A stretch of 10,055 nt of DNA from a virus (Duplodnaviria; Heunggongvirae; Uroviricota; Caudoviricetes), in IMG/VR virus record IMGVR_UViG_2706795442_000001, one strand, 5' to 3'. Below the pieces are notes generated by a model, which was not told the origin of the DNA, ran no database searches, and worked only from the letters and a program-made list of their open reading frames with translations. Made by a program: the position numbers and the translations under genes. Shown here one piece after another: positions 73-10,055 of this stretch (position 1 is its first letter; each line of letters begins with the position of its first letter).

Positions 73-1056
73 TTATCTCCATCTTAATTCCATAGCTTTA
101 TGGTTTACTTTTTTGATTGCAGCTTCTATTGATTGTCTAACAGAAGATTCATCATTTCCTATTATATCAGCTATAGCAACATTTGTCAAGCCATTTCTAT
201 AAAATTTTAAACATTCTCTTTCTCTGTCTGTCATTTCAGTACGTTCTATAAGATTATCTAAATCATATAATATACATTGAAAATCATTTTGGAAATCCCC
301 ATTAAATTTAAATCTCAATAATCCGTCTACTCTATTAAAGTGTGGATTACTATAATCTAATGAATACCCCTTTAAATGATTATAATTTGCAAAATCAATT
401 ACATCTAAATTTGGCTGTGTCGATTCGCTAAAATATCTTAATGAATAGCCGTGAATTTTCATTAGACTATCTTTTGCTAATATCATATCTTTTTTAACTT
501 CGCCTTTGATTCTATCTACTTTAAACTTTTGACCTTCTTCTGATTTTCTTTTCAATACATTAAGATAAGTGTCATAATCTCTGAGAACTGAGCCTAGCCA
601 ATCCCCACGTTTTAAGTCTTTAGCTGTTATTTTTTGGTCTTTACTTTTTTTATAGTTACTCTGACCTGCCAAAAGAAAATCTATTACTTCTGGTTCTTGG
701 TCTTGATATAATTTTTCTTTACTAACTGCTTTTCTAAAAGCATCTTCATCATAATAAAACTTGTAATTCACGTCGTTATCTTCTCTTGTATCAGCAGAAT
801 TAAGTAAATATGTTGCATAATTCTCCAATACTTTACAAACATTATTATCCATAGAGAGATAATCATTTTGAGAAGCTACTGGATTATAGTAATCTGTAAA
901 ATATTCTTCAAAGAATGATGTCCCCTCTAATGTTTGATTAATACAATCTAATCTATCGTTATAATTAAGAAGACTTCTATCCATAACTTTATTTAATTTA
1001 ATAGCATTAGTTCCGTCTAATGTTGCTGTAAAATTTTGTTGTGTTGTAAAAGCCAC
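73..1056 (-). CDS. Phage protein with a C-terminal sigma70 region-4/LuxR-like helix-turn-helix; putative transcription regulator or sigma-like factor
   Basis: 327-aa ORF with GTG start and AGGAG upstream. C-terminus MTDRERECLKFYRNGLTNVAIADIIGNDESSVRQSIEAAIKKV fits the LTxRExE..L...G.T..EIA..lG.S...V pattern. The N-terminal 270 aa are not recognised. Confidence 0.7.
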   Translation of the reverse strand: MAFTTQQNFTATLDGTNAIKLNKVMDRSLLNYNDRLDCINQTLEGTSFFEEYFTDYYNPVASQNDYLSMDNNVCKVLENYATYLLNSADTREDNDVNYKFYYDEDAFRKAVSKEKLYQDQEPEVIDFLLAGQSNYKKSKDQKITAKDLKRGDWLGSVLRDYDTYLNVLKRKSEEGQKFKVDRIKGEVKKDMILAKDSLMKIHGYSLRYFSESTQPNLDVIDFANYNHLKGYSLDYSNPHFNRVDGLLRFKFNGDFQNDFQCILYDLDNLIERTEMTDRERECLKFYRNGLTNVAIADIIGNDESSVRQSIEAAIKKVNHKAMELRWR

Positions 1057-1237: not shown

Positions 1238-1254
1238 TGTTAAGAAAATGTTAA
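1238..1254 (+). promoter_or_regulatory. OmpR/PhoB-family direct repeat TGTTAA-N5-TGTTAA
   Basis: TGTTAAGAAAATGTTAA matches the WalR consensus TGTWAH-N5-TGTWAH and contains the SaeR consensus GTTAA-N6-GTTAA. On the minus strand it reads TTAACA-N5-TTAACA (PhoP-like). It is intergenic. Confidence 0.5.
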
Positions 1255-2898: not shown

Positions 2899-2934
2899 TC
2901 TTATTTCTCCTTTTTGTTTTTTAAATCTATTGTT

Positions 2935-2964
2935 AGTTTATCATTCAATTATAAAAATTGTCAA
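2935..2964 (-). promoter_or_regulatory. sigmaA-type promoter for the 148-aa gene
   Basis: Minus strand TTGACA (2964-2959), 18 nt, TAAACT (2940-2935), with extended -10 TG. Confidence 0.7.
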
Positions 2965-3218
2965 TTTTTTTCTTTAAAAATAAATATTTAACATATCTGC
3001 CAGTTTTTTCCAAAAATAAATTATCATGAAATTTATATATTCCCGCCGGGTTTTTTGATATTTTTTGTTATCATGAAAACTTTTTATTTTGCCTTAAAAA
3101 AGTTCCCCGGGGTTTTTAGTATGTCCCTTATCATAACTCTTTCTCATTTTTTACGAAAAAAAGTTGTCGAATTTTTTACGATTTGCCTACCGTCTAACGA
3201 CTGTCTTATAAAATAATT

Positions 3219-3310
3219 TTTTTATACAATAATAAATATATAATATAAAATTTTAATACAATATAATAAATATTTAATAAAATTTTTATACAATAATTTA
3301 TATATAACTT
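3219..3310. repeat. Three 32-bp-period AT-rich tandem units
   Basis: TTT(T/A)ATACAATA units with TACAAT at 3225, 3257 and 3289, in almost purely A/T sequence. Confidence 0.6.
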
Positions 3311-3472
3311 TTTATTTTTGATATATAACAAAATTATATAATCTATTAATTAAAAACTTTTTAGAAGTGTTCTGTTTTTTGTTCGTATTAAATTATCAAT
3401 GTTCTAATTTCTTTCTTTTAACTTGCCTATATCGTAACGCCGTTTTTTGATTTTGCGTTAAAAATAACCTAG

Positions 3473-3493
3473 TTTGTAACATTCTTGTAATAT
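3473..3493 (+). promoter_or_regulatory. WalR-type box, copy 1 of the 21-mer TTTGTAAYATTCTTGTAATAT
   Basis: TGTAAC (3475)-ATTCT-TGTAAT (3486) is an exact TGTWAH-N5-TGTWAH. Confidence 0.6.
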
Positions 3494-3550
3494 AAAACTA
3501 TTCAAACATGCGATATTAAAGCCTTTTATAGTAGATTGTAATTATTATTA

Positions 3551-3571
3551 TTTGTAATATTCTTGTAATAT
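3551..3571 (+). promoter_or_regulatory. WalR-type box, copy 2
   Basis: TGTAAT (3553)-ATTCT-TGTAAT (3564). Confidence 0.6.
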
Positions 3572-3730
3572 AGGCGTGTTTCTTCCATATAAAGACAAAA
3601 ATATTATTTCAAACTTGTATTTTTCCTTTTAATAGTAGAAACTATTTTAAAAAATAAATTTTAAAATTTTTTACGCTTACTCTCTCAAGGGATTTAGTCA
3701 TTTTTTAGTATGTAAATTTAAAATTAATAC

Positions 3731-3759
3731 TTGCAATTAGTTTTATAAGGGCGTATAGT
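3731..3759 (+). promoter_or_regulatory. sigmaA-type promoter
   Basis: TTGCAA, 17 nt, TATAGT, upstream of the ORF at 3809. Confidence 0.7.
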
Positions 3760-3808
3760 AAGAATTGTCAAAAGGGCAACAAACAAAAAAGAAAAAGGAT
3801 GATAAAAA

Positions 3809-4060
3809 ATGAAAATTACAAAAGAATACAATGAAGCATCAAGCACAGTAAACAATATGGATGTTTTTGATGTATACGTGAATGACTGGGGACTGCTACA
3901 GTATGGGTTTAAATATAATGAATTTACTGGGCTACATGATTTATACATTATGAACACAAAGAAAAAATTTACTGGTGTGCCACTTGAAAAAATGAATAAT
4001 ATTATTGAAAAAGAGTTAAATTATCAAATTAAACTATTTAAACAAGCGAAAAGAATTTAA
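3809..4060 (+). CDS. Hypothetical small early phage protein (83 aa)
   Basis: AAAGGATGATAAAAAATG RBS junction and its own promoter. Confidence 0.8.
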   Translation: MKITKEYNEASSTVNNMDVFDVYVNDWGLLQYGFKYNEFTGLHDLYIMNTKKKFTGVPLEKMNNIIEKELNYQIKLFKQAKRI

Positions 4061-4068
4061 AATAATTG

Positions 4069-4097
4069 TTGACTTTCAGAAATGAAAAGAGTAACAT
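4069..4097 (+). promoter_or_regulatory. sigmaA-type promoter
   Basis: TTGACT, 17 nt, TAACAT, followed by AGACAGTTA at 4101. Confidence 0.75.
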
Positions 4098-4136
4098 TAT
4101 AGACAGTTATAAATCACATAGAAAAGGATGATAAAA

Positions 4137-4682
4137 ATGAAAACAATTACACAAACATTTAATATTTATGAAATTACAGAATTAGAAGAAGAAGCAAAAC
4201 AAGAAGCAATTGAACAATCAAGAAATCAATTTCAAGAAATGGTGTCTGATTTTTACTATGATGAAATGCTATCAACTTTTAAAGAAGTAGCTAAAAACTT
4301 AAATATTGATATTGTTAGTTGGTCTATTGGATGCTTTAATCCTAACATATATATCAATCTTGATATTACCGATTATATGGAATTATCAAACACAGAAAAA
4401 AATAAACTAGTTGATAAAGTTAATCAATTTATTAAAAGTGATGATGATTGTCCGTTTACTGGTGTTTATACTGATTGTTATTTTAATGATTACTTTATTA
4501 AAAATAACATTAATAAAGTTACTTATAATAATCTTCATAAACACATAACAGAATCTTTTGACTGGGTATTATCTAAATATATCAATGATATTGAAAACAA
4601 TATATTAAATGATGATTTAATGATTGAGTATTCTCAAGATAATAATTTTATGTTTTTAGAAAATGGTAAAATTTATCAATGA
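4137..4682 (+). CDS. Conserved-looking acidic phage protein of unknown function (181 aa; start moved from 4128 to 4137)
   Basis: AAGGA RBS spacing favours ATG at 4137. The N-terminus (TFNIYEITELEEEAKQEAIE), central CPFTGVYTD and C-terminus (FMFLENGKIY) recall, from memory only, a widespread mobile-element family. No search was run. Confidence 0.85.
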   Translation: MKTITQTFNIYEITELEEEAKQEAIEQSRNQFQEMVSDFYYDEMLSTFKEVAKNLNIDIVSWSIGCFNPNIYINLDITDYMELSNTEKNKLVDKVNQFIKSDDDCPFTGVYTDCYFNDYFIKNNINKVTYNNLHKHITESFDWVLSKYINDIENNILNDDLMIEYSQDNNFMFLENGKIYQ

Positions 4683-4707
4683 AAATAACAAAGTGTAAAA
4701 TTTCCAC

Positions 4708-4735
4708 TTGAAATCACTTTTTAAAGTAGTACAAT
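4708..4735 (+). promoter_or_regulatory. sigmaA-type promoter
   Basis: TTGAAA, 16 nt, TACAAT, preceded directly by AACAAAGTGTAAAATTTCC. Confidence 0.65.
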
Positions 4736-4782
4736 AAATAATATAAGATAATCAAATAAACAAATTGAAAGAGGTTTTTAAA

Positions 4783-4984
4783 ATGAAAACAAAAAAAATA
4801 TACAATTAAACATAATAACACAGATGTTAGTAAATTATGGAATTTAGCAAAAAACGGCGTTTTTAGTTATCAGACAGTACGCAAGATATTCGACAATGAA
4901 AATGATGGATTCATTACATTTAATAGCAAATATTCATATGATAAATTCAAACAACATGAATTTACTACAAGCGCATATTATTAA
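4783..4984 (+). pseudogene. 66-aa gene frameshifted in an A8 tract (or phase-variable)
   Basis: Promoter, GAGGT RBS and ATG at 4783; stops after 8 codons as written. Removing one A from 4791-4798 gives MKTKKYTIKHNNTDVSKLWNLAKNGVFSYQTVRKIFDNENDGFITFNSKYSYDKFKQHEFTTSAYY, ending at TAA 4982-4984 just before the next promoter. Confidence 0.75.
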
Positions 4985-4992
4985 AATAATTC

Positions 4993-5020
4993 TTGATTTT
5001 GAAAATCAAAGTGATATAAT
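4993..5020 (+). promoter_or_regulatory. sigmaA-type promoter with a palindrome over -35
   Basis: TTGATT, 16 nt, TATAAT with extended TG. TTGATTTT-G-AAAATCAA (4993-5009) is a perfect inverted repeat. Confidence 0.7.
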
Positions 5021-5066
5021 AGATATTAAGAAATACAAAAAAATGAAATGAAAAGGATGATAAAAA

Positions 5067-5363
5067 ATGAACAACAAAAAATTTAATGAATTACAACAAT
5101 TAATTGAAGAAGTAAACGAAATTACAAACGGGGCATATGATAACATTATTAAAGAAGAAAAAGAAACTTTTTGGAATAGTTTGGAAATTAGGGACGAAAA
5201 ACCGGAACGTATAGCGAATATGATTCACTTTGGCAGTTATAATCCACTAGATGAATTTATTGGGTTTGATGGTTACGGAAATATCGAAAGTATGGACAAA
5301 CACACATACTATAATGAATTGAAAGACTATCAAACAGAATTATTAAAAGAAATTGAAGAATAA
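5067..5363 (+). CDS. Hypothetical acidic phage protein (98 aa) with an FG.YNP.D.F..FDGYGN motif
   Basis: AAAAGGATGATAAAAAATG junction; the motif resembles conserved small phage proteins (from memory). Confidence 0.85.
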   Translation: MNNKKFNELQQLIEEVNEITNGAYDNIIKEEKETFWNSLEIRDEKPERIANMIHFGSYNPLDEFIGFDGYGNIESMDKHTYYNELKDYQTELLKEIEE

Positions 5364-5379
5364 GAAAGGATGTTAAAAG

Positions 5380-5907
5380 ATGAACAAATCAAAAACATTA
5401 ATTTATATTGATAGCTTATTGCTATCTTATGAAATTAAACAAGAAAGTATAGGCGCTGATATTGATATAGTTGACGTGATAGGAACTACAGAAGTTAACA
5501 ACATTATATATTTAGCGTTAGAAGTAGAATATAACGACTATTGTTATTTAACTCATGTTGAGTTAGTCAACATGTGGGCTTATCCGAATGATGATGACAA
5601 GCAAGAAATCAAAGAAGAATTATTAAACAATATATTTAAAGATATTGCTTTTCAATCAAGTAGTATCAATGTTGGCGATGTAGTAAGATATACAGACGAT
5701 ATTTATATTAAGAATATAAAAAATGATTATTTCTTTTTATCTGATAATGAAACGCCTAAAATGGATGTAAATTATATAGTAAGTGATTTACATTATGACG
5801 GCATAGACGAACAGAACAATTTAATAGTATTATATCAATTAGAAAAAGATGACGAATATTTAGGCATTCTAACTAATGAATTTGAAATTGAGAAAGTGAG
5901 TGAATAA
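5380..5907 (+). CDS. Hypothetical acidic phage protein (175 aa)
   Basis: GAAAGGATG RBS; open frame; operonic spacing. Confidence 0.85.
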   Translation: MNKSKTLIYIDSLLLSYEIKQESIGADIDIVDVIGTTEVNNIIYLALEVEYNDYCYLTHVELVNMWAYPNDDDKQEIKEELLNNIFKDIAFQSSSINVGDVVRYTDDIYIKNIKNDYFFLSDNETPKMDVNYIVSDLHYDGIDEQNNLIVLYQLEKDDEYLGILTNEFEIEKVSE

Positions 5908-5909
5908 AA

Positions 5910-6272
5910 ATGAAAGAATTGATATTATCAAATATAACAAAATATGAAAATTTTAAAGAGTATTCAAAATATATGAATACAGATAAAGAAGAATTTAAAG
6001 AAAATGAAGCAAATGGGTTTATTGTAAATATTACGTGTGGAACATATAACGGCGCTACCGATGAATTTACGCCGTGGCGCATTACTGATGACAATATTAT
6101 TGATACTTTAGTGCAATCATTAAGTGATTTAGATTACTATAATATTATTGCTAATATGGTAGATGAAGATACTACCAATTGGAAAATTGAGAAATTTATT
6201 TATGAATTAGTTAGCATTGAAAAAATTTTTATAATAGAAGATACAAGAAATATTTATATTGATAGAAATTAA
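5910..6272 (+). CDS. Hypothetical phage protein (120 aa)
   Basis: GAAAGTGAGTG RBS embedded in the end of the previous gene; followed by a terminator. Confidence 0.85.
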   Translation: MKELILSNITKYENFKEYSKYMNTDKEEFKENEANGFIVNITCGTYNGATDEFTPWRITDDNIIDTLVQSLSDLDYYNIIANMVDEDTTNWKIEKFIYELVSIEKIFIIEDTRNIYIDRN

Positions 6273-6298
6273 AACGGGCTTTCATAGTCCGTTTTTTT
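6271..6298 (+). terminator. Rho-independent terminator
   Basis: ACGGGCT-TTCAT-AGTCCGT stem (one G-U pair), followed by a T-run and preceded by an A-run. Confidence 0.85.
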
Positions 6299-6447
6299 GT
6301 GTTTTTTAGGTCTAAAATAAAAGCGATTTCAAACCGTTGATATAATGGCAATCTGTCCATATAGCGACTTTATTAAGTTTTTAGGGGTATTGTAGCCTAA
6401 AAAACTAAAGTCCATAAATACCCCTTTAAAATAGATTTTAAGGCATG

Positions 6448-6476
6448 TTGACAATATTATAAACTTGTGTTATATA
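6448..6476 (+). promoter_or_regulatory. Strong sigmaA-type promoter (upstream of a tandem pair)
   Basis: TTGACA, 17 nt, TATATA with extended TG. Confidence 0.75.
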
Positions 6477-6501
6477 GTCAGTTTGTAATTTTACACATTA
6501 T

Positions 6502-6542
6502 TTTGTAACATTCTTGTAATATTCTTGTAGTTGATTTGTAAC
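6502..6542 (+). promoter_or_regulatory. WalR-type box, copy 3, extended to four 11-bp-phased hexamers
   Basis: TGTAAC 6504, TGTAAT 6515, TGTAGT 6526, TGTAAC 6537. The last two bracket the -35 TTGATT (6531-6536). Confidence 0.65.
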
Positions 6543-6559
6543 AGTCAAAGTGTTAAAGT
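6531..6559 (+). promoter_or_regulatory. sigmaA-type promoter (downstream of the tandem pair)
   Basis: TTGATT, 17 nt, TAAAGT with extended TG, then AGACAGTTA at 6562. Confidence 0.7.
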
Positions 6560-6600
6560 ATAGACAGTTAGAAAAAACAAGAAAAAAAGGATGATAAAAA

Positions 6601-6903
6601 ATGAAACTCAATAAAATGTTAAACAAAGCAAGAAACAACAAAACAAAAACAACACAAACAACATTAAAAAATAATGGCTTGAATATTAAAATTGAATACA
6701 GACCGAACGCCGAAGGGTTTAACAGTCAATATAAAAACAATACTTTTTATACCTATATTGATAATGAACTTGTTGGCGACTTATACCAACAAGAAAACAA
6801 TGTTCTAATGTGGTGTGATAATCACAATAAGTTAGTTTCTAATTTAACAGAAGCTAAACACATTGAGCATGTTTATAGTTTAGGATATATCGAAGAAGTG
6901 TAA
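6601..6903 (+). CDS. Hypothetical phage protein (100 aa)
   Basis: AAAAGGATGATAAAAAATG junction; tandem promoters upstream. Confidence 0.85.
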   Translation: MKLNKMLNKARNNKTKTTQTTLKNNGLNIKIEYRPNAEGFNSQYKNNTFYTYIDNELVGDLYQQENNVLMWCDNHNKLVSNLTEAKHIEHVYSLGYIEEV

Positions 6904-6931
6904 AATTTTACTTTTTATTTTTAAAAAGATG

Positions 6932-6959
6932 TTGAAATAAGTGCAAAATTTGATACAAT
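6932..6959 (+). promoter_or_regulatory. sigmaA-type promoter
   Basis: TTGAAA, 16 nt, TACAAT with extended TG, then AGACAGTTA at 6962. Confidence 0.7.
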
Positions 6960-6996
6960 AAAGACAGTTAAGAAAATAATAAAGGTGGTAACAAAA

Positions 6997-7083
6997 ATGA
7001 TTACATTATATATACTTGCTCATTGGCGTATGAGCAAAGAAAAGAAAAAACAAAGTGAGTTATATTTTGCTTATACTAGATAA
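6997..7083 (+). CDS. Small peptide (28 aa), MITLYILAHWRMSKEKKKQSELYFAYTR
   Basis: Below the ORF-track cutoff. First gene after the 6932 promoter with an AAGGTGG RBS; its stop abuts the next AAGGTGG. Confidence 0.6.
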   Translation: MITLYILAHWRMSKEKKKQSELYFAYTR

Positions 7084-7097
7084 GGTGGTTATAAAAA

Positions 7098-7340
7098 ATG
7101 AAATTAATAAACAGTAATAAAGAAATTGAAGCGATTAATAATAAAGAAAATGATTTTATTGTAAATGTTCGTTATAAACTCACAGATTATATTACAGATT
7201 GTATGCGTAACAATGAAGATGACCATATAGAAATTTTAAAGTGGTTGTCAACATTAGAAAAATGTTTAATATGTGAAACGGTTAAAGATTTAATTAACCT
7301 AATTAATATCTATGATTTACCTTTTAATATTATAAAGTAA
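7098..7340 (+). CDS. Hypothetical phage protein (80 aa)
   Basis: TAAGGTGG RBS; open frame. Confidence 0.8.
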   Translation: MKLINSNKEIEAINNKENDFIVNVRYKLTDYITDCMRNNEDDHIEILKWLSTLEKCLICETVKDLINLINIYDLPFNIIK

Positions 7341-7354
7341 GGTGGTTTTAAAAA

Positions 7355-7501
7355 ATGATTAAGTTTACACACAAAAACAAAAAATATAAAAGCACACAAA
7401 CAACAGACGCATTAATAACGTTGTTTGGTGGTACTGGATTAATTACATTGCTTGATTGGTTGGTATCAATTCAAGATAATATAAATATTTTTGTTAAATA
7501 A
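7355..7501 (+). CDS. Small putative membrane-associated protein (48 aa)
   Basis: Not in the track. TAAGGTGG RBS; MIKFTHKNKKYKSTQTTDALITLFGGTGLITLLDWLVSIQDNINIFVK has a basic N-terminus then a hydrophobic stretch. Confidence 0.7.
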   Translation: MIKFTHKNKKYKSTQTTDALITLFGGTGLITLLDWLVSIQDNINIFVK

Positions 7502-7540
7502 ACAAAGTGTAAAATTTCCTTAAAAAGTTTTAAAAAAGTA

Positions 7541-7569
7541 TTGAAATAATTTCCAATAGGCTTTAGAAT
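7541..7569 (+). promoter_or_regulatory. sigmaA-type promoter
   Basis: TTGAAA, 17 nt, TAGAAT; AACAAAGTGTAAAATTTCC at 7501-7519 upstream. Confidence 0.75.
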
Positions 7570-7613
7570 AATAAATGTAATAACAATAATAAAAACAAGA
7601 TAGGATGATGAAA

Positions 7614-7871
7614 ATGACTACAGAACTACAAGCAATTTACACGAATCAAAAAAGTTTTTACGGAAAAGCACAGGTTGAATATACGCCAGACAATCACAAA
7701 ATTTTATATAGCTATAATACGAAAGTTTGCGAACTAAACGCCGACAATCAGATAATAAAAATCGGCTATTATTCACAAACAACTAGCCGACACATTAATG
7801 ATTTTTTACAACAAAATGGACATAAGAAAATGAGTAAAAAAGAAATTGAAAAATTAGAAAGTGAGTGTTAA
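7614..7871 (+). CDS. Conserved-looking small phage protein (85 aa; start moved from 7605 to 7614) with SFYGKA...YSQTTSRH motifs
   Basis: AGGA RBS spacing favours ATG at 7614. The motifs recall a widespread phage family of unknown function (from memory). Confidence 0.85.
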   Translation: MTTELQAIYTNQKSFYGKAQVEYTPDNHKILYSYNTKVCELNADNQIIKIGYYSQTTSRHINDFLQQNGHKKMSKKEIEKLESEC

Positions 7872-7873
7872 AA

Positions 7874-8032
7874 ATGGAAAATGAAACATTAGAACAAATT
7901 AAAAATGACTATATTTTTCTAATATCAGAACATCCAAACGATTGGGGATTAAACGAAACGGCAACCGATGAAGAAATTAAAGAAATGGCGTTATCTTTAG
8001 CTATTGAAGAAAAAGAAAACAAAATAATATAA
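7874..8032 (+). CDS. Small acidic protein (52 aa)
   Basis: Not in the track. MENETLEQIKNDYIFLISEHPNDWGLNETATDEEIKEMALSLAIEEKENKII; GAAAGTGAGTG RBS; fills the gap between neighbours exactly. Confidence 0.75.
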   Translation: MENETLEQIKNDYIFLISEHPNDWGLNETATDEEIKEMALSLAIEEKENKII

Positions 8033-8048
8033 AGGGGGGGTGTAAATA

Positions 8049-8318
8049 ATGAATAATGAATTAAAAAGACATGTTAACAATGAATATAAAAAAATGATAA
8101 GTGATTGCTATAAACGTATAAAAAACGTTGGTGGCGTCATTACAAATGATTTTAAACAATGGGGCAACATAGATGAATGCGATGACATATATTACATTAT
8201 AAATCACTGTGCGTATAAGCTATATAAAAAAGGTGTTAAAGAAATAAGCATAACACCGAAATTTATTAAGTTGATTCTTAACAATGATAAAGCGAAATAT
8301 ATTAAAAAAGGATGTTAA
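8049..8318 (+). CDS. Hypothetical basic phage protein (89 aa)
   Basis: AAAGGGGGGG RBS; open frame. Confidence 0.8.
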   Translation: MNNELKRHVNNEYKKMISDCYKRIKNVGGVITNDFKQWGNIDECDDIYYIINHCAYKLYKKGVKEISITPKFIKLILNNDKAKYIKKGC

Positions 8319-8321
8319 AAT

Positions 8322-8621
8322 ATGGATAAAAATTTAGTAGATATTAATTTAGAATTAAGTAAAGGCTATGCAATCGACTTAAATATTTTAAGTTATAAAA
8401 TAACTATTGTGAAACATGATAATGAAACGCTAGGCGTTTTTTATAAACATGTTAAGATTGGGGAATTAAATTCCAATAACAGTATTTTTTATCGCTTCAC
8501 ATTTTACGGCGAAGATTTTGGGACACGTGATTTTATCTATGATAAAGTAACAAGCATTAAGCAAGTGCTAGGGATTATGTTGTATCATGATTTTGATATA
8601 ATAGATTATGATAATTATTAA
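8322..8621 (+). CDS. Hypothetical phage protein (99 aa)
   Basis: AAAGGATG RBS inside the end of the previous gene; followed by a terminator. Confidence 0.8.
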   Translation: MDKNLVDINLELSKGYAIDLNILSYKITIVKHDNETLGVFYKHVKIGELNSNNSIFYRFTFYGEDFGTRDFIYDKVTSIKQVLGIMLYHDFDIIDYDNY

Positions 8622-8671: not shown

Positions 8672-8818
8672 ATTATGCCTTATTTTAAGCGCTATTATAT
8701 TACGGGTATTATATACCTTTTGACTTATAACGTTTCTGTGTGGCTTTCTGTGTGGATTGTATAACGGGGGGTGGTTATATATTACATTGTTTACATGGTC
8801 GGTCTAATAATAAGGGTT

Positions 8819-8990
8819 TATATAATCGTCACTTATATTATAGGTTGCTATATATGAACGGTGCTATATAAAGGGTAGTATATTAAAGGCGTATATATAA
8901 CAGTGCTATATAATGGATATATAGGGCGTATATAAAGCGTTGTTATATAATAGGTGGTATATATCAAGGGTATATATAAAGGCGTATGTA
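8819..8990. repeat. Array of about 13 TATATA-core units spaced 11-16 bp with G-rich linkers
   Basis: Cores at 8819, 8834, 8849, 8865, 8879, 8892, 8907, 8918, 8929, 8944, 8958, 8971, 8985; approximate consensus GGCGTATATA(T)AAA. Confidence 0.65.
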
Positions 8991-9900
8991 TAAGCCTATG
9001 TGTAACATGTGTGTATATGTATCTATATATGTGTATGCTATATGTGTGTACATATGTATACAGTATATACAGTTGTGTATATATGTATATGTAATATATG
9101 TATGTGTTATGTATTGTGTGTATATGTGTAGTTGTATGTGTGTATGATAGTACAATGATAGTAGTATGATTATGTATAGTTATATATATAGTAATGTATA
9201 TGTATAGTTTTATGTGTATTCGTTGTGTGGTGTATCAGTATGTAGTATGTATCGTATGGACAGTGTGCACAGTGGTATATATATCATAGTGCATATATGT
9301 ATATGTACATATGTATGTAAGTATATATAGTTATGTATATAGATATGTATATGTATAGTTATGTTGATTGTGTTTGTATGTGTTGTGTGTATGTATGTTG
9401 TATTGATATATGTATGATTGTATATGATTAAGTATATAGTTATATGTATTGTGATTGTGTATGTATTAGATTGTTATACATGAATGTATGTAATGATATG
9501 TAATGATTATATATAACAATGATATATAACAATGATATGTAATGATTACATGTAATGATTAACACACATAGTATATCAATGTATTAGATTGTATTACATG
9601 ATTGTATATAGTATTGATATGTATTGATATGATACAAGCTATATCATACAACCTTATTACCTTATTACCTTATATATCCTTATAACGCATGTATGCGTAT
9701 GTGCGTGTTCTGTCTGTGTCTGTCTGTGTCTGTCTGTTGTGTGTTCGGTGTCATGTTCGTATATTGTATTATGTTTGATATATGTTGGATGATATAGTAT
9801 GATATTTATTTATATAATATATTTGTATTGCACAAGTGATATTATATAATTTTTTTATACAATATCAATCGCATATTATATAGTTTGTATACCTGGTATG
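8991..9900. repeat. Non-coding, strand-biased alternating TA/TG low-complexity tract with embedded short tandem repeats
   Basis: Plus strand is made mostly of TATG, TGTG and TATA, with C scarce. ATGTAATGAT at 9488, 9498, 9537, 9550; ATATAACAATGAT at 9511, 9524; CCTTATTA at 9652, 9660 (partial at 9668); TCTGTCTGTG at 9709, 9719 (variant at 9729). Confidence 0.9.
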
Positions 9901-10055
9901 TACAGACCTATAAAATATTTATAGAAATTTTACACCACGGGTGGTCTAATAAGAGGTCGGTATGGCTTCGGGTAGTCCTGGAAACGTTGGTGCTGTAGGG
10001 GTCCCCCTGTTTTTTATGTGAAAATTTGATTCTTTTTTAAAAGACAAGCGCCCCC

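What the first reader, a model, noticed from the sequence alone, without database searches (positions are those of the whole stretch)
6448..6570. Tandem promoters separated by a four-hexamer 11-bp-phased WalR-type array: a candidate host-sensing switch
Seen: a near-consensus promoter (TTGACA 6448), then TGTAAC/TGTAAT/TGTAGT/TGTAAC at 6504, 6515, 6526 and 6537, the last two bracketing the weaker -35 of a second promoter. Established: OmpR/PhoB-family dimers bind 11-bp direct repeats cooperatively, activating when at or above -35 and repressing when downstream of +1. Inference: one binding event could block the upstream promoter and activate (or occlude) the downstream one, tuning the 100-aa gene to host envelope state. 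I am not aware of this arrangement being described in a phage early region, but could not search. This is the best candidate for a new system in the window.
Basis: partly seen in the sequence, partly recalled or inferred. Interest (0 to 1): 0.82.

Follow-up and report, generated by a model that had tools for sequence, protein, structure and literature searches.

The report
Host WalR boxes at phage promoters
A lytic Staphylococcus epidermidis phage carries, at two of its presumed early promoters, exact copies of the DNA box that the host's essential cell-wall regulator WalR recognises, so the phage probably ties its first genes to the host's growth and wall state; binding has not been tested.

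Summary
Four TGTAAY-type hexamers sit at 6504, 6515, 6526 and 6537 with an 11-bp period, between promoter-like P1 (6448-6476) and P2 (6531-6559). The window is a Sextaecvirus, 98.5% identical to S. epidermidis phage BE02.

The array is one of three sites sharing the core TGTAAYATTCTTGTAATAT (3475, 3553, 6504). These are the only TGTAAY-N5-TGTAAY repeats in the 95-kb BE02 genome. The core is invariant across the genus while the flanks diverge.

The same 17-mer, with at most one mismatch, occurs 78 times in 113 Staphylococcaceae genomes, against 6 for a reversed control. Of 30 places examined, 28 are intergenic and 24 lie beside ltaS, LysM-CHAP/NlpC-P60, IsaA/SceD-like or FemAB genes, which are mostly WalR-regulon genes.

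Five Sextaecvirus genomes encode no detectable OmpR-type DNA-binding domain. Bacillus (Thrax1, PBC2) and Lactococcus (WRP3) phages have analogous phased arrays in front of -10 boxes.

Best reading, about 0.6: these are host WalR sites controlling promoters of the presumed early genes. The direction of control and the proposed P1/P2 switch remain inference. P1's -10 lacks the key final T, the third hexamer breaks the consensus, and no host genome holds a four-hexamer array.

The closest precedents are Spo0A boxes in phi29/Nf and pho boxes in cyanophages. I rate it a new variant of a known kind.

The parts
6448..6476 (+). P1: -35 TTGACA (6448-6453), 17-nt spacer, TG (6468-6469), -10 TATATA (6471-6476). 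The predicted start is near 6483.
   Evidence: Read from the sequence. Invariant in 7 phages. The -10 lacks the final T, so the consensus scan did not list it.
6484..6496 (.). An extra TGTAAT half-site (6484-6489) overlapping AATTTTACAC (6487-6496). The latter is the reverse complement of the recurrent GTGTAAAATT motif. Together they form an imperfect inverted pair, TGTAA-N2-TTACA.
   Evidence: Conserved in 7 phages. Its function is open.
6504..6520 (+). Box A: TGTAAC-ATTCT-TGTAAT, a strict WalR-type direct repeat. It lies about -62 to -46 from the predicted P2 start and +21 to +37 from the predicted P1 start.
   Evidence: The same 17-mer sits at WalR-regulon promoters in Staphylaceae-family genomes.
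6526..6542 (+). Box B: TGTAGT-TGATT-TGTAAC, in phase with box A and overlapping the P2 -35. Hexamer 3 departs from the consensus (G at position 5; TGTGGT in SEP9).
6531..6559 (+). P2: -35 TTGATT (6531-6536), 17-nt spacer, TG (6551-6552), -10 TAAAGT (6554-6559).
   Evidence: Read from the sequence. It has the same -10/leader module as the promoter-like sites at 4069 and 6932.
6562..6570 (+). AGACAGTTA, a conserved start/leader motif shared by three promoter-like sites in the window. It lies just upstream of the point where the homologous gene in BE22 joins different upstream DNA.
6587..6903 (+). Ribosome-binding site (AAGGATG, 6587-6593) and the 100-aa ORF 6601-6903, which belongs to no known family.
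3475..3491 (+). Array 1: TGTAAC-ATTCT-TGTAAT, with the same core as box A. It lies in the 900-bp divergent intergenic region.
3553..3593 (+). Array 2: TGTAAT-ATTCT-TGTAAT (3553-3569), then a conserved 18-nt block, then a -10-like TATAAA (3588-3593) with no usable -35. This looks like an activator-dependent promoter at the head of the rightward gene cluster.
   Evidence: The box and the -10 block are invariant in 8 phages. PMBT8 and PT1-1 carry a 10-nt insertion between them.
73..1056 (-). Phage sigma-factor-like protein of 327 aa, called 'response regulator' in some records. This is context, not the predicted binder.
   Evidence: phrog_5767, E 1e-101; weak GerE/sigma-70 region 4 matches. Homologues occur in phages that lack the arrays, and none was detected in phages that have them.

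Best explanation
[quoted passage not shown] WalR is the essential OmpR/PhoB-family regulator of cell-wall homeostasis in Bacillota. The phage carries three such sites (3475, 3553, 6504-6542), all on the coding strand of its rightward cluster of small, presumably early genes.

Inferred mechanism:
- WalR~P dimers bind box A head-to-tail. Binding to the weaker in-phase box B would probably be cooperative.
- At P2 the four hexamers span about -62 to -24 and replace a good -35. This is the layout of PhoB/PhoP/WalR-activated promoters, so WalR~P most likely helps RNA polymerase at P2.
- The same would apply at the -35-less promoter behind array 2.
- The same bound protein lies at +21 to +59 of P1, a position that is repressive in S. 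aureus. It could therefore damp read-through from P1.
- The net effect would couple expression of these genes to WalKR activity, which is high in growing, wall-remodelling cells.

What is shown: the sequence, its conservation, its identity to boxes beside host WalR-regulon genes, and the lack of a detectable phage OmpR-type domain. What is inferred: binding itself, the sign of regulation, and the early timing of these genes.
For: 1. Box A and arrays 1 and 2 fit TGTWAH-N5-TGTWAH and TGTHH-N6-WGTNDD.
2. In the 95-kb BE02 genome, TGTAAY-N5-TGTAAY occurs only at these three places, all on the + strand of the rightward cluster.
3. The 19-nt core is invariant in 8 or more Sextaecvirus phages, including S. 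hyicus and S. chromogenes phages whose flanks have diverged. Spacing changes are 10 and 11 nt, close to one helical turn.
4. In 113 Staphylococcaceae genomes the 17-mer with at most one mismatch gives 78 hits against 6 for the reversed control. Of 30 places, 28 are intergenic: 13 beside ltaS, 5 beside LysM-NlpC/P60 or LysM-CHAP genes, 5 beside IsaA/SceD-like transglycosylases, 1 beside a FemAB gene.
5. In other Bacilli the exact 19-mer sits beside NlpC/P60 genes.
6. S. epidermidis ssaA2 has a predicted YycF site one base away from the phage core. The YycF helix-turn-helix is 100% identical to that of S. aureus (PMC5405149).
7. No Trans_reg_C domain was found in 5 Sextaecvirus genomes at E<=1; the control matched in 12 of 14 genomes.
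8. Bacillus phages Thrax1 and PBC2 and Lactococcus phage WRP3 share only 21-27% identical replication proteins with BE02. They nevertheless have the same design: 4-5 phased hexamers, varying only within the WalR degeneracy, placed before a -10. WRP3 has the same 11-nt gap from hexamer 4 to the -10.
9. The position rule comes from PMC10746227.
Against: - There is no binding or expression data. No raw RNA reads were available to map starts.
- The spacer ATTCT and the trailing AT are conserved beyond what the published consensus requires.
- Hexamer 3 (TGTAGT; TGTGGT in SEP9) violates the consensus.
- Four phased TGTAR hexamers occur in none of 113 host-family genomes, so the array is not a host design.
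- The M. sciuri phage F1 has the hexamers at a 10-bp period, not 11 bp.
- BE22 and PG-2021_5 lack array 3, so it is dispensable.
- Enterococcus relatives show no enrichment of boxes.
- The phage groups that carry arrays are distant relatives, so a conserved phage-encoded binder below BLAST sensitivity is not excluded.
- P1's -10 lacks the final T.
Confidence: 0.6

Rival explanations
1. The hexamers are operators, or origin iterons, for a phage-encoded DNA-binding protein that is conserved in this group of phages. One example would be an early-gene shut-off repressor. Under this reading the match to WalR boxes is coincidental or is mimicry.
For: - Phased direct repeats are typical of phage operators and iterons.
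- The spacer and flanks are more conserved than the WalR consensus needs.
- A four-hexamer array is absent from host genomes.
- Arrays 1 and 2 lie in a 900-bp non-coding region with AT-rich 32-bp repeats.
- The phage groups with arrays share a distant replication module.
- Many small proteins in the cluster have no known fold.
Against: - No OmpR-type domain was found in 5 phage genomes.
- The sigma/GerE-like protein is present in Enterococcus phages without arrays and was not detected in WRP3 or Thrax1, which have them.
- Proteins shared by BE02, WRP3 and Thrax1 at E<1e-4 are enzymes, a Sak4-type AAA_24 ATPase, a recombinase, HNH-type endonucleases and a tail protein. None is a recognisable regulator.
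- DnaA boxes are not enriched.
- A coincidental 17/17 identity to boxes at host ltaS and autolysin promoters, with variation confined to the WalR-degenerate positions, is unlikely.
Confidence: 0.2
2. The sites are read by another host OmpR/PhoB-family regulator, such as PhoP, or by WalR and PhoP interchangeably. In that case the signal sensed would be phosphate or another envelope stress.
For: - The layout of four phased repeats replacing the -35 is, from my own knowledge, the classical PhoB/PhoP core-promoter design.
- The exact 19-mer also lies upstream of ppx in Oligella and Alcaligenaceae, which have no WalR.
- Predicted S. epidermidis YycF sites include pstS, pitR and phnD.
Against: - The hexamer TGTAAY is the WalR half-site, not the Bacillus PhoP TT(A/T/C)ACA (my own knowledge).
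- Of 30 family loci, 24 flank cell-wall genes, not phosphate genes.
Confidence: 0.07
3. The array is a recent 11-bp tandem duplication, or A/T-rich upstream DNA with no specific reader. Any effect would come from DNA shape (an UP-element-like effect) or from a structure in the 5' leader RNA.
For: Tandem Repeats Finder sees 2.5 near-identical 11-bp units. The region is AT-rich. The module is optional in the genus.
Against: - The same core occurs at two other places 3 kb away.
- The core is invariant while the flanks diverge.
- Analogous arrays exist in Bacillus and Lactococcus phages.
- The leader RNA fold is not unusual (z = -1.35), and there is no Rfam match.
Confidence: 0.05

Closest known systems
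WalR (YycF/VicR) boxes of the host cell-wall regulon (S. aureus ltaS, sle1, isaA, ssaA, SAUSA300_0602; S. epidermidis ssaA2, sceD, ltaS)
   Same: The same 17-bp direct repeat, TGTWAH-N5-TGTWAH. The phage 17-mer recurs, with at most one mismatch, beside ltaS, LysM-CHAP/NlpC-P60 and IsaA/SceD-like genes in the host family. The site positions relative to the -35 and -10 fall into the activating and repressing classes described for S. aureus (PMC10746227; PMC5405149).
   Different: The sites are in a virulent phage genome, upstream of small genes of unknown function. The four-hexamer in-phase array was not found in 113 host-family genomes. Binding is untested.
Spo0A boxes in the early promoters and origins of the lytic Bacillus phages phi29 and Nf (PMC2731898)
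   Same: A lytic phage carries binding sites for a host response regulator at its early promoters, so host physiology decides whether early transcription proceeds.
   Different: The regulator is different (Spo0A, with a 7-bp 0A box, and a sporulation signal). In phi29 the effect is repression and spore entrapment. Here the regulator is the essential growth and wall sensor, and the layout suggests activation at P2.
Pho boxes upstream of cyanophage pstS/phoA, driven by the host PhoBR system (PMC10976474 and my own knowledge)
   Same: Boxes for a host OmpR/PhoB-family regulator, direct repeats with an 11-bp period, sit in a phage genome and place phage genes under a host two-component system.
   Different: Those boxes control auxiliary metabolic genes acquired from the host, not the phage's presumed early gene cluster. 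The regulator and the signal are also different.
PhoB/PhoP-type activated core promoters (from my own knowledge)
   Same: Four phased repeats, enough for two dimers, span about -60 to -20 and replace a good -35 in front of a usable -10.
   Different: The hexamer sequence is the WalR half-site, not a Pho half-site.

Membership tests
WalR (YycF/VicR) binding site | Two hexamers TGT(A/T)A(A/T/C) in direct repeat, separated by 5 nt | tested here: met
   Met at 6504-6520, 3475-3491 and 3553-3569. The pair 6526-6542 fails at one base: TGTAGT.
WalR (YycF/VicR) binding site | Fits the ChIP-seq-derived S. aureus motif TGTHH-N6-WGTNDD | tested here: met
   Box A and arrays 1 and 2 fit on direct reading against the motif quoted. 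Box B does not (G at the second H).
WalR (YycF/VicR) binding site | The same sequence occupies promoters of known WalR-regulon genes in the host lineage | tested here: met
   78 hits against 6 for the control in 113 genomes. Of 30 loci, 24 lie beside ltaS, LysM-CHAP/NlpC-P60, IsaA/SceD-like or FemAB genes. The predicted S. epidermidis ssaA2 site differs by one base.
WalR (YycF/VicR) binding site | Lies in a promoter region, at an activating or repressing position relative to the -35 and -10 | tested here: met
   Box A ends 10 nt upstream of the P2 -35 and lies downstream of the predicted P1 start. Array 2 ends 18 nt upstream of a conserved -10. The promoters are predicted, not mapped.
WalR (YycF/VicR) binding site | Bound by WalR~P in vitro or in vivo (EMSA, footprint, ChIP) | not testable with these tools
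WalR (YycF/VicR) binding site | Promoter output changes when WalKR activity is raised or lowered | not testable with these tools
   The public runs holding this DNA are kept only as assembled contigs, which cannot show starts or levels.
PhoB/PhoP-type activator-dependent core promoter | Four in-phase repeats from about -60 to -20, a weak or absent -35, and a usable -10 | tested here: met
   Hexamers span -62 to -24 from the predicted P2 start. The -35 TTGATT matches 4 of 6; the -10 TAAAGT is preceded by TG. Thrax1, PBC2 and WRP3 show the same design.
Phage-encoded OmpR/PhoB-type regulator with its own operator | The phage encodes a Trans_reg_C winged-helix domain | tested here: not met
   PF00486 gave no match at E<=1 in six-frame searches of 5 Sextaecvirus genomes. 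The control matched in 12 of 14 genomes.
Replication-origin iterons | Repeats lie beside an AT-rich unwinding region, DnaA boxes or an initiator gene that co-occurs with them | tested here: inconclusive
   AT-rich 32-bp repeats lie about 170 bp upstream of array 1. DnaA boxes are not enriched. The shared AAA protein is a Sak4-type AAA_24, not an initiator. Array 3 sits directly on a promoter.
Host response-regulator boxes in lytic-phage early promoters (phi29/Nf Spo0A type) | Boxes for a host regulator at the early promoters of a virulent phage, with a shown effect on early transcription | tested here: inconclusive
   The boxes and promoter positions are met by sequence. The effect on transcription is untested, and the early timing is inferred from sigma-A-type promoters and a TreN-like gene.

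The most novel reading that the evidence does not exclude
Several distantly related groups of large virulent siphoviruses of Bacillota have wired the first promoters of their presumed early gene clusters to the host's essential WalRK cell-wall homeostasis system. The groups are Sextaecvirus in staphylococci, Tsamsa-like phages in the Bacillus cereus group, and 949-like phages in Lactococcus. They use multi-hexamer in-phase WalR arrays that do not occur in host genomes. This would gate infection on active wall growth. Alternatively, once the genome is replicated, the arrays could soak up WalR~P and disturb autolysin and lipoteichoic-acid control.
Probability: 0.35. Interest if true: 0.82.

Novelty: new variant of a known kind. 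Interest (0 to 1): 0.66.

Why it matters
WalKR is the only essential two-component system of staphylococci, and it reports whether the wall is being built and remodelled. If a virulent phage reads WalR~P at its presumed early promoters, infection success would depend on host growth state. Stationary-phase, biofilm, VISA-type walKR mutant and antibiotic-treated cells could all differ. That bears on phage therapy against S. epidermidis biofilms.

It would also add a third, mechanistically distinct example of lytic phages listening to a host response regulator, after Spo0A with phi29 and PhoB with cyanophages. The recurrence in Bacillus and Lactococcus phages suggests a general strategy.

The sites are short, exact and easy to mutate, so the idea can be tested directly.

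Tried and rejected
- **RNA evidence for transcription starts.** Public runs that hold this DNA are kept only as assembled contigs, which cannot show starts, so I did not lay reads.
- **Structured RNA.** The leader from the predicted P1 start folds no better than shuffles (z = -1.35), and the window has no Rfam match.
- **The core as a sigma-A promoter in its own right.** No register gives a conserved -35/-10 pair at arrays 1-3 (reading).
- **The sigma/GerE-like ORF 73-1056 as the binder.** Its distribution runs opposite to that of the arrays.
- **Origin reading through DnaA boxes.** They are not enriched.
- **Function of the 100-aa gene.** No family was found in Pfam, PHROGs or the ESM Atlas.
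- **The whole-collection scan for the 19-mer.** Besides the informative Bacilli hits, it returned many Clostridia contigs (beside SepF, PrgI and unnamed genes) and Oligella/Alcaligenaceae contigs (beside ppx). The Oligella/Alcaligenaceae hosts have no WalR, so these hits cannot be WalR sites. I did not count any of these hits as support.
- **The box at 1238-1254.** It has no counterpart in five relatives scanned over the equivalent region, so I treat it as chance.
- **Own genome.** No whole genome is held for this window. BE02 served as a stand-in.

Full report
**What the window is.** The region 6000-7100 is 98.5% identical to Staphylococcus phage vB_SepS_BE02 and 98.1% identical to phage CF9. 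All ten matching records are Staphylococcus phages, and every record I opened is classified in Sextaecvirus. These are siphoviruses of about 92-97 kb that infect S. epidermidis. The finding lies inside a rightward cluster of small genes (3809-8621). That cluster is flanked by a 900-bp non-coding region (2900-3808) and a repeat-rich non-coding tract (8700-10000). To the left are leftward genes, including a phage sigma-factor-like protein (ORF 73-1056; phrog_5767, E 1e-101). That the small genes are early is inferred. The grounds are their sigma-A-type promoters and a TreN-like membrane protein gene at 7355-7501.

**Check of the observation.** Tandem Repeats Finder reports the unit TTGTAACATTC. 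TGTARY-N5-TGTARY has 5 matches in the window against 0.10 expected (0 of 200 shuffles). The strict WalR consensus has 4 matches against 0.47 expected (0 of 200).

P1 is TTGACA, 17 nt, TATATA, with an upstream TG. Its -10 lacks the conserved final T, so 'near-consensus' overstates it. P2 is TTGATT (6531-6536), 17 nt, TAAAGT (6554-6559), with an upstream TG. It is followed by AGACAGTTA, a motif that also follows the -10 of the promoter-like sites at 4069 and 6932. P2 therefore belongs to the phage's standard promoter and leader module, with the array occupying the -35 side.

**The array is one of three sites.** The core TGTAAYATTCTTGTAATAT also occurs at 3475 and 3553, on the same strand, in the intergenic region ahead of the first rightward gene. 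In the complete 95-kb BE02 genome, TGTAAY-N5-TGTAAY occurs only at these three places.

Array 2 is followed, after a conserved 18-nt block, by a -10-like TATAAA (3588-3593) with no usable -35. That is the look of an activator-dependent promoter.

**Conservation.**
- In BE02, CF9, CF1, SEP9, Ph11 and Ph12, the block from P1 to the AGACAGTTA leader is almost invariant. The sequence upstream of it varies.
- Arrays 1 and 2 are present in all S. epidermidis relatives examined.
- In the S. hyicus phage PMBT8 and the S. chromogenes phage PT1-1, the flanks are only about half identical. Box 2 (19 of 19) and the -10 block are still invariant.
- PMBT8 and PT1-1 have a 10-nt insertion between box 2 and the -10. 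In PMBT8 arrays 1 and 2 are 67 bp apart rather than 78 bp. Both differences are about one helical turn, which would fit face-of-helix constraints, but this is only two observations.
- The M. sciuri phage F1 has three hexamers at a 10-bp period, which does not fit WalR spacing.
- The P1-array-P2 module is portable and optional. In SEP9 it drives different genes. In BE22 the homologue of the 100-aa gene follows the previous ORF directly, without the module.

**Who reads the boxes.** The published WalR motifs are TGTWAH-N5-TGTWAH and, from S. aureus ChIP-seq, TGTHH-N6-WGTNDD (PMC10746227; PMC5405149). Box A and arrays 1 and 2 fit both.

A scan of one genome per prokaryote species for the exact 19-mer gave 122 matches, of which 109 are intergenic by a crude ORF test. 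In Bacilli they lie beside these genes:
- NlpC/P60 or LysM-NlpC/P60 genes in Neobacillus, two Bacillus species and Lysinibacillus (grouped by BLAST with the genes scanned), and in Heyndrickxia and Acetilactobacillus.
- A sulfatase-domain LtaS gene in two Mammaliicoccus species and in S. coagulans.

In 113 Staphylococcaceae genomes the 17-mer with at most one mismatch occurs 78 times, against 6 for the reversed control, and most mismatches fall in the spacer. Of 30 places examined, 28 are intergenic. Thirteen flank ltaS, five flank LysM-NlpC/P60 or LysM-CHAP genes, five flank IsaA/SceD-like transglycosylases and one flanks a FemAB gene.

ltaS, sle1, isaA, ssaA and sceD are WalR-regulon genes in S. 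aureus. In S. epidermidis itself, a predicted YycF site upstream of ssaA2 differs from the phage core by one base. The YycF helix-turn-helix is 100% identical to that of S. aureus.

Six-frame searches of five Sextaecvirus genomes found no Trans_reg_C domain at E<=1, while the control matched in 12 of 14 genomes. The simplest reader of these boxes is therefore host WalR.

**Analogues in other phages.** A sensitive search with the 48-bp array found 42-45-bp matches in intergenic DNA of Bacillus phages (Thrax1, PBC2 and Tsamsa relatives) and of Lactococcus phage WRP3.
- In Thrax1 and PBC2, a single box is followed about 130 bp later by four strict in-phase hexamers, directly before a -10. This lies at the head of a rightward small-gene cluster. 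Thrax1 has a fifth hexamer one base out of phase.
- In WRP3 the pattern is hexamer 1, hexamer 2, a degenerate position, then hexamer 4. An 11-nt gap and a -10 follow, the same gap as in this window.
- Three more boxes lie inside the WRP3 small-gene cluster. Two end 19-20 nt upstream of perfect TTGACA -35 hexamers. The third is followed by an in-phase extra hexamer that ends 10 nt before one.
- In each of these phages the boxes cluster in that region.
- BE02 shares only replication-type proteins with WRP3 and Thrax1, at 21-27% identity, and no recognisable regulator.
- The hexamers vary only at the positions that are degenerate in the WalR consensus (TGTAAC, TGTAAT, TGTTAT).

A recognition sequence that stays fixed across hosts and deep phage divergence fits a conserved host protein better than a drifting phage protein. 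It does not exclude a phage protein. Enterococcus phages that share the sigma-like gene show no box enrichment.

**Mechanism and its limits.** In S. aureus, WalR sites upstream of the -35 go with activation, and sites between or downstream of the promoter elements go with repression. Strongly activated promoters there have poor -35 hexamers a few bases downstream of the box. Strongly repressed ones (SAUSA300_0602, sasD) carry TGTAAT repeats over or after the -10.

By these rules box A is activating for P2 and repressing for P1. Box B overlaps the P2 -35 and could act either way.

Points against the switch, or against WalR:
- P1's -10 is defective.
- Hexamer 3 is off-consensus.
- No four-hexamer array occurs in 113 host-family genomes.
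- The spacer is conserved more strictly than the published consensus requires.
- The module is dispensable in some relatives.
- No raw RNA reads were available.

**Comparison with what is known, and novelty.** Searches of the held literature found no report of WalR, YycF or VicR boxes in phage promoters. The closest precedents are Spo0A boxes in phi29 and Nf (PMC2731898) and pho boxes in cyanophages (PMC10976474). I rate this a new variant of a known kind. My confidence that WalR binds and regulates here is about 0.6. The specific two-promoter switch is less certain.

Noticed in passing
window 4101-4109, 6562-6570, 6962-6970 (and 3593-3597): AGACAGTTA follows the -10 of three promoter-like sites, and AGACA follows the array-2 -10. 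The same module occurs in phage PT1-1. In BE22, homology to the window's gene-6601 region begins at about 6568, within this motif, so it may act as a recombination junction for gene cassettes.
   Followed up: partly
window 4693, 6898, 7507 (+); 6487, 9926 (-): GTGTAAAATT recurs just after gene ends and 5-24 nt upstream of TTGAAA -35 hexamers. At 6899-6910 it is part of the perfect 12-bp palindrome GTAAAATTTTAC. It may be a separate operator for a dimeric protein. It contains a WalR-like half-site, TGTAAA.
   Followed up: partly
window 7605-7871: This 88-aa ORF is 46% identical to a gene in the small-gene cluster of Lactococcus phage WRP3 (record positions 19795-20034). That is far closer than the replication proteins of the two phages (21-27%), which suggests exchange of these gene cassettes between phages of different hosts.
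   Followed up: partly
window 73-1056 (-): This phage sigma-factor-like protein (phrog_5767) is annotated variously as response regulator, transcriptional regulator or sigma factor. Homologues at 22-43% identity occur in Enterococcus, Geobacillus, Leuconostoc, Arcanobacterium and C. difficile phages.
   Followed up: partly
window 3676-3684: CTTACTCTC lies in the leader ahead of the first rightward gene. It is conserved in the M. sciuri phage F1 and also appears in the equivalent non-coding region of Bacillus phage Thrax1. Its function is unknown.
   Followed up: no
window 3207-3307 and 8990-9900: There are AT-rich 32-bp repeats (3.2 copies) upstream of array 1, and a long TA/TG purine-pyrimidine tract at the right end. 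Similar alternating tracts lie in the big intergenic regions of Thrax1, PBC2 and WRP3 next to their hexamer arrays.
   Followed up: no
window 1238-1254: TGTTAAGAAAATGTTAA fits the WalR consensus. No counterpart was found in CF9, CF1, SEP9, PG-2021_5 or BE22 when the equivalent regions were scanned, so it is probably chance.
   Followed up: partly
L175 (Geobacillus phage GR1) 2512-2528: A WalR-type box, TGTAATAAAAATGTAAT, lies about 100 bp upstream of a phage gene annotated as a cell wall-binding protein.
   Followed up: no
L027, L038, L097, L113; L036; L018 and relatives: The exact 19-mer also lies about 110 bp upstream of ppx in Oligella and Alcaligenaceae, where it is probably a Pho box. It also lies 27 nt upstream of a 1201-aa ORF in Ruoffia, which I read as rpoB from its first residues without a family search, and upstream of sepF in several Clostridia assemblies.
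   Followed up: partly
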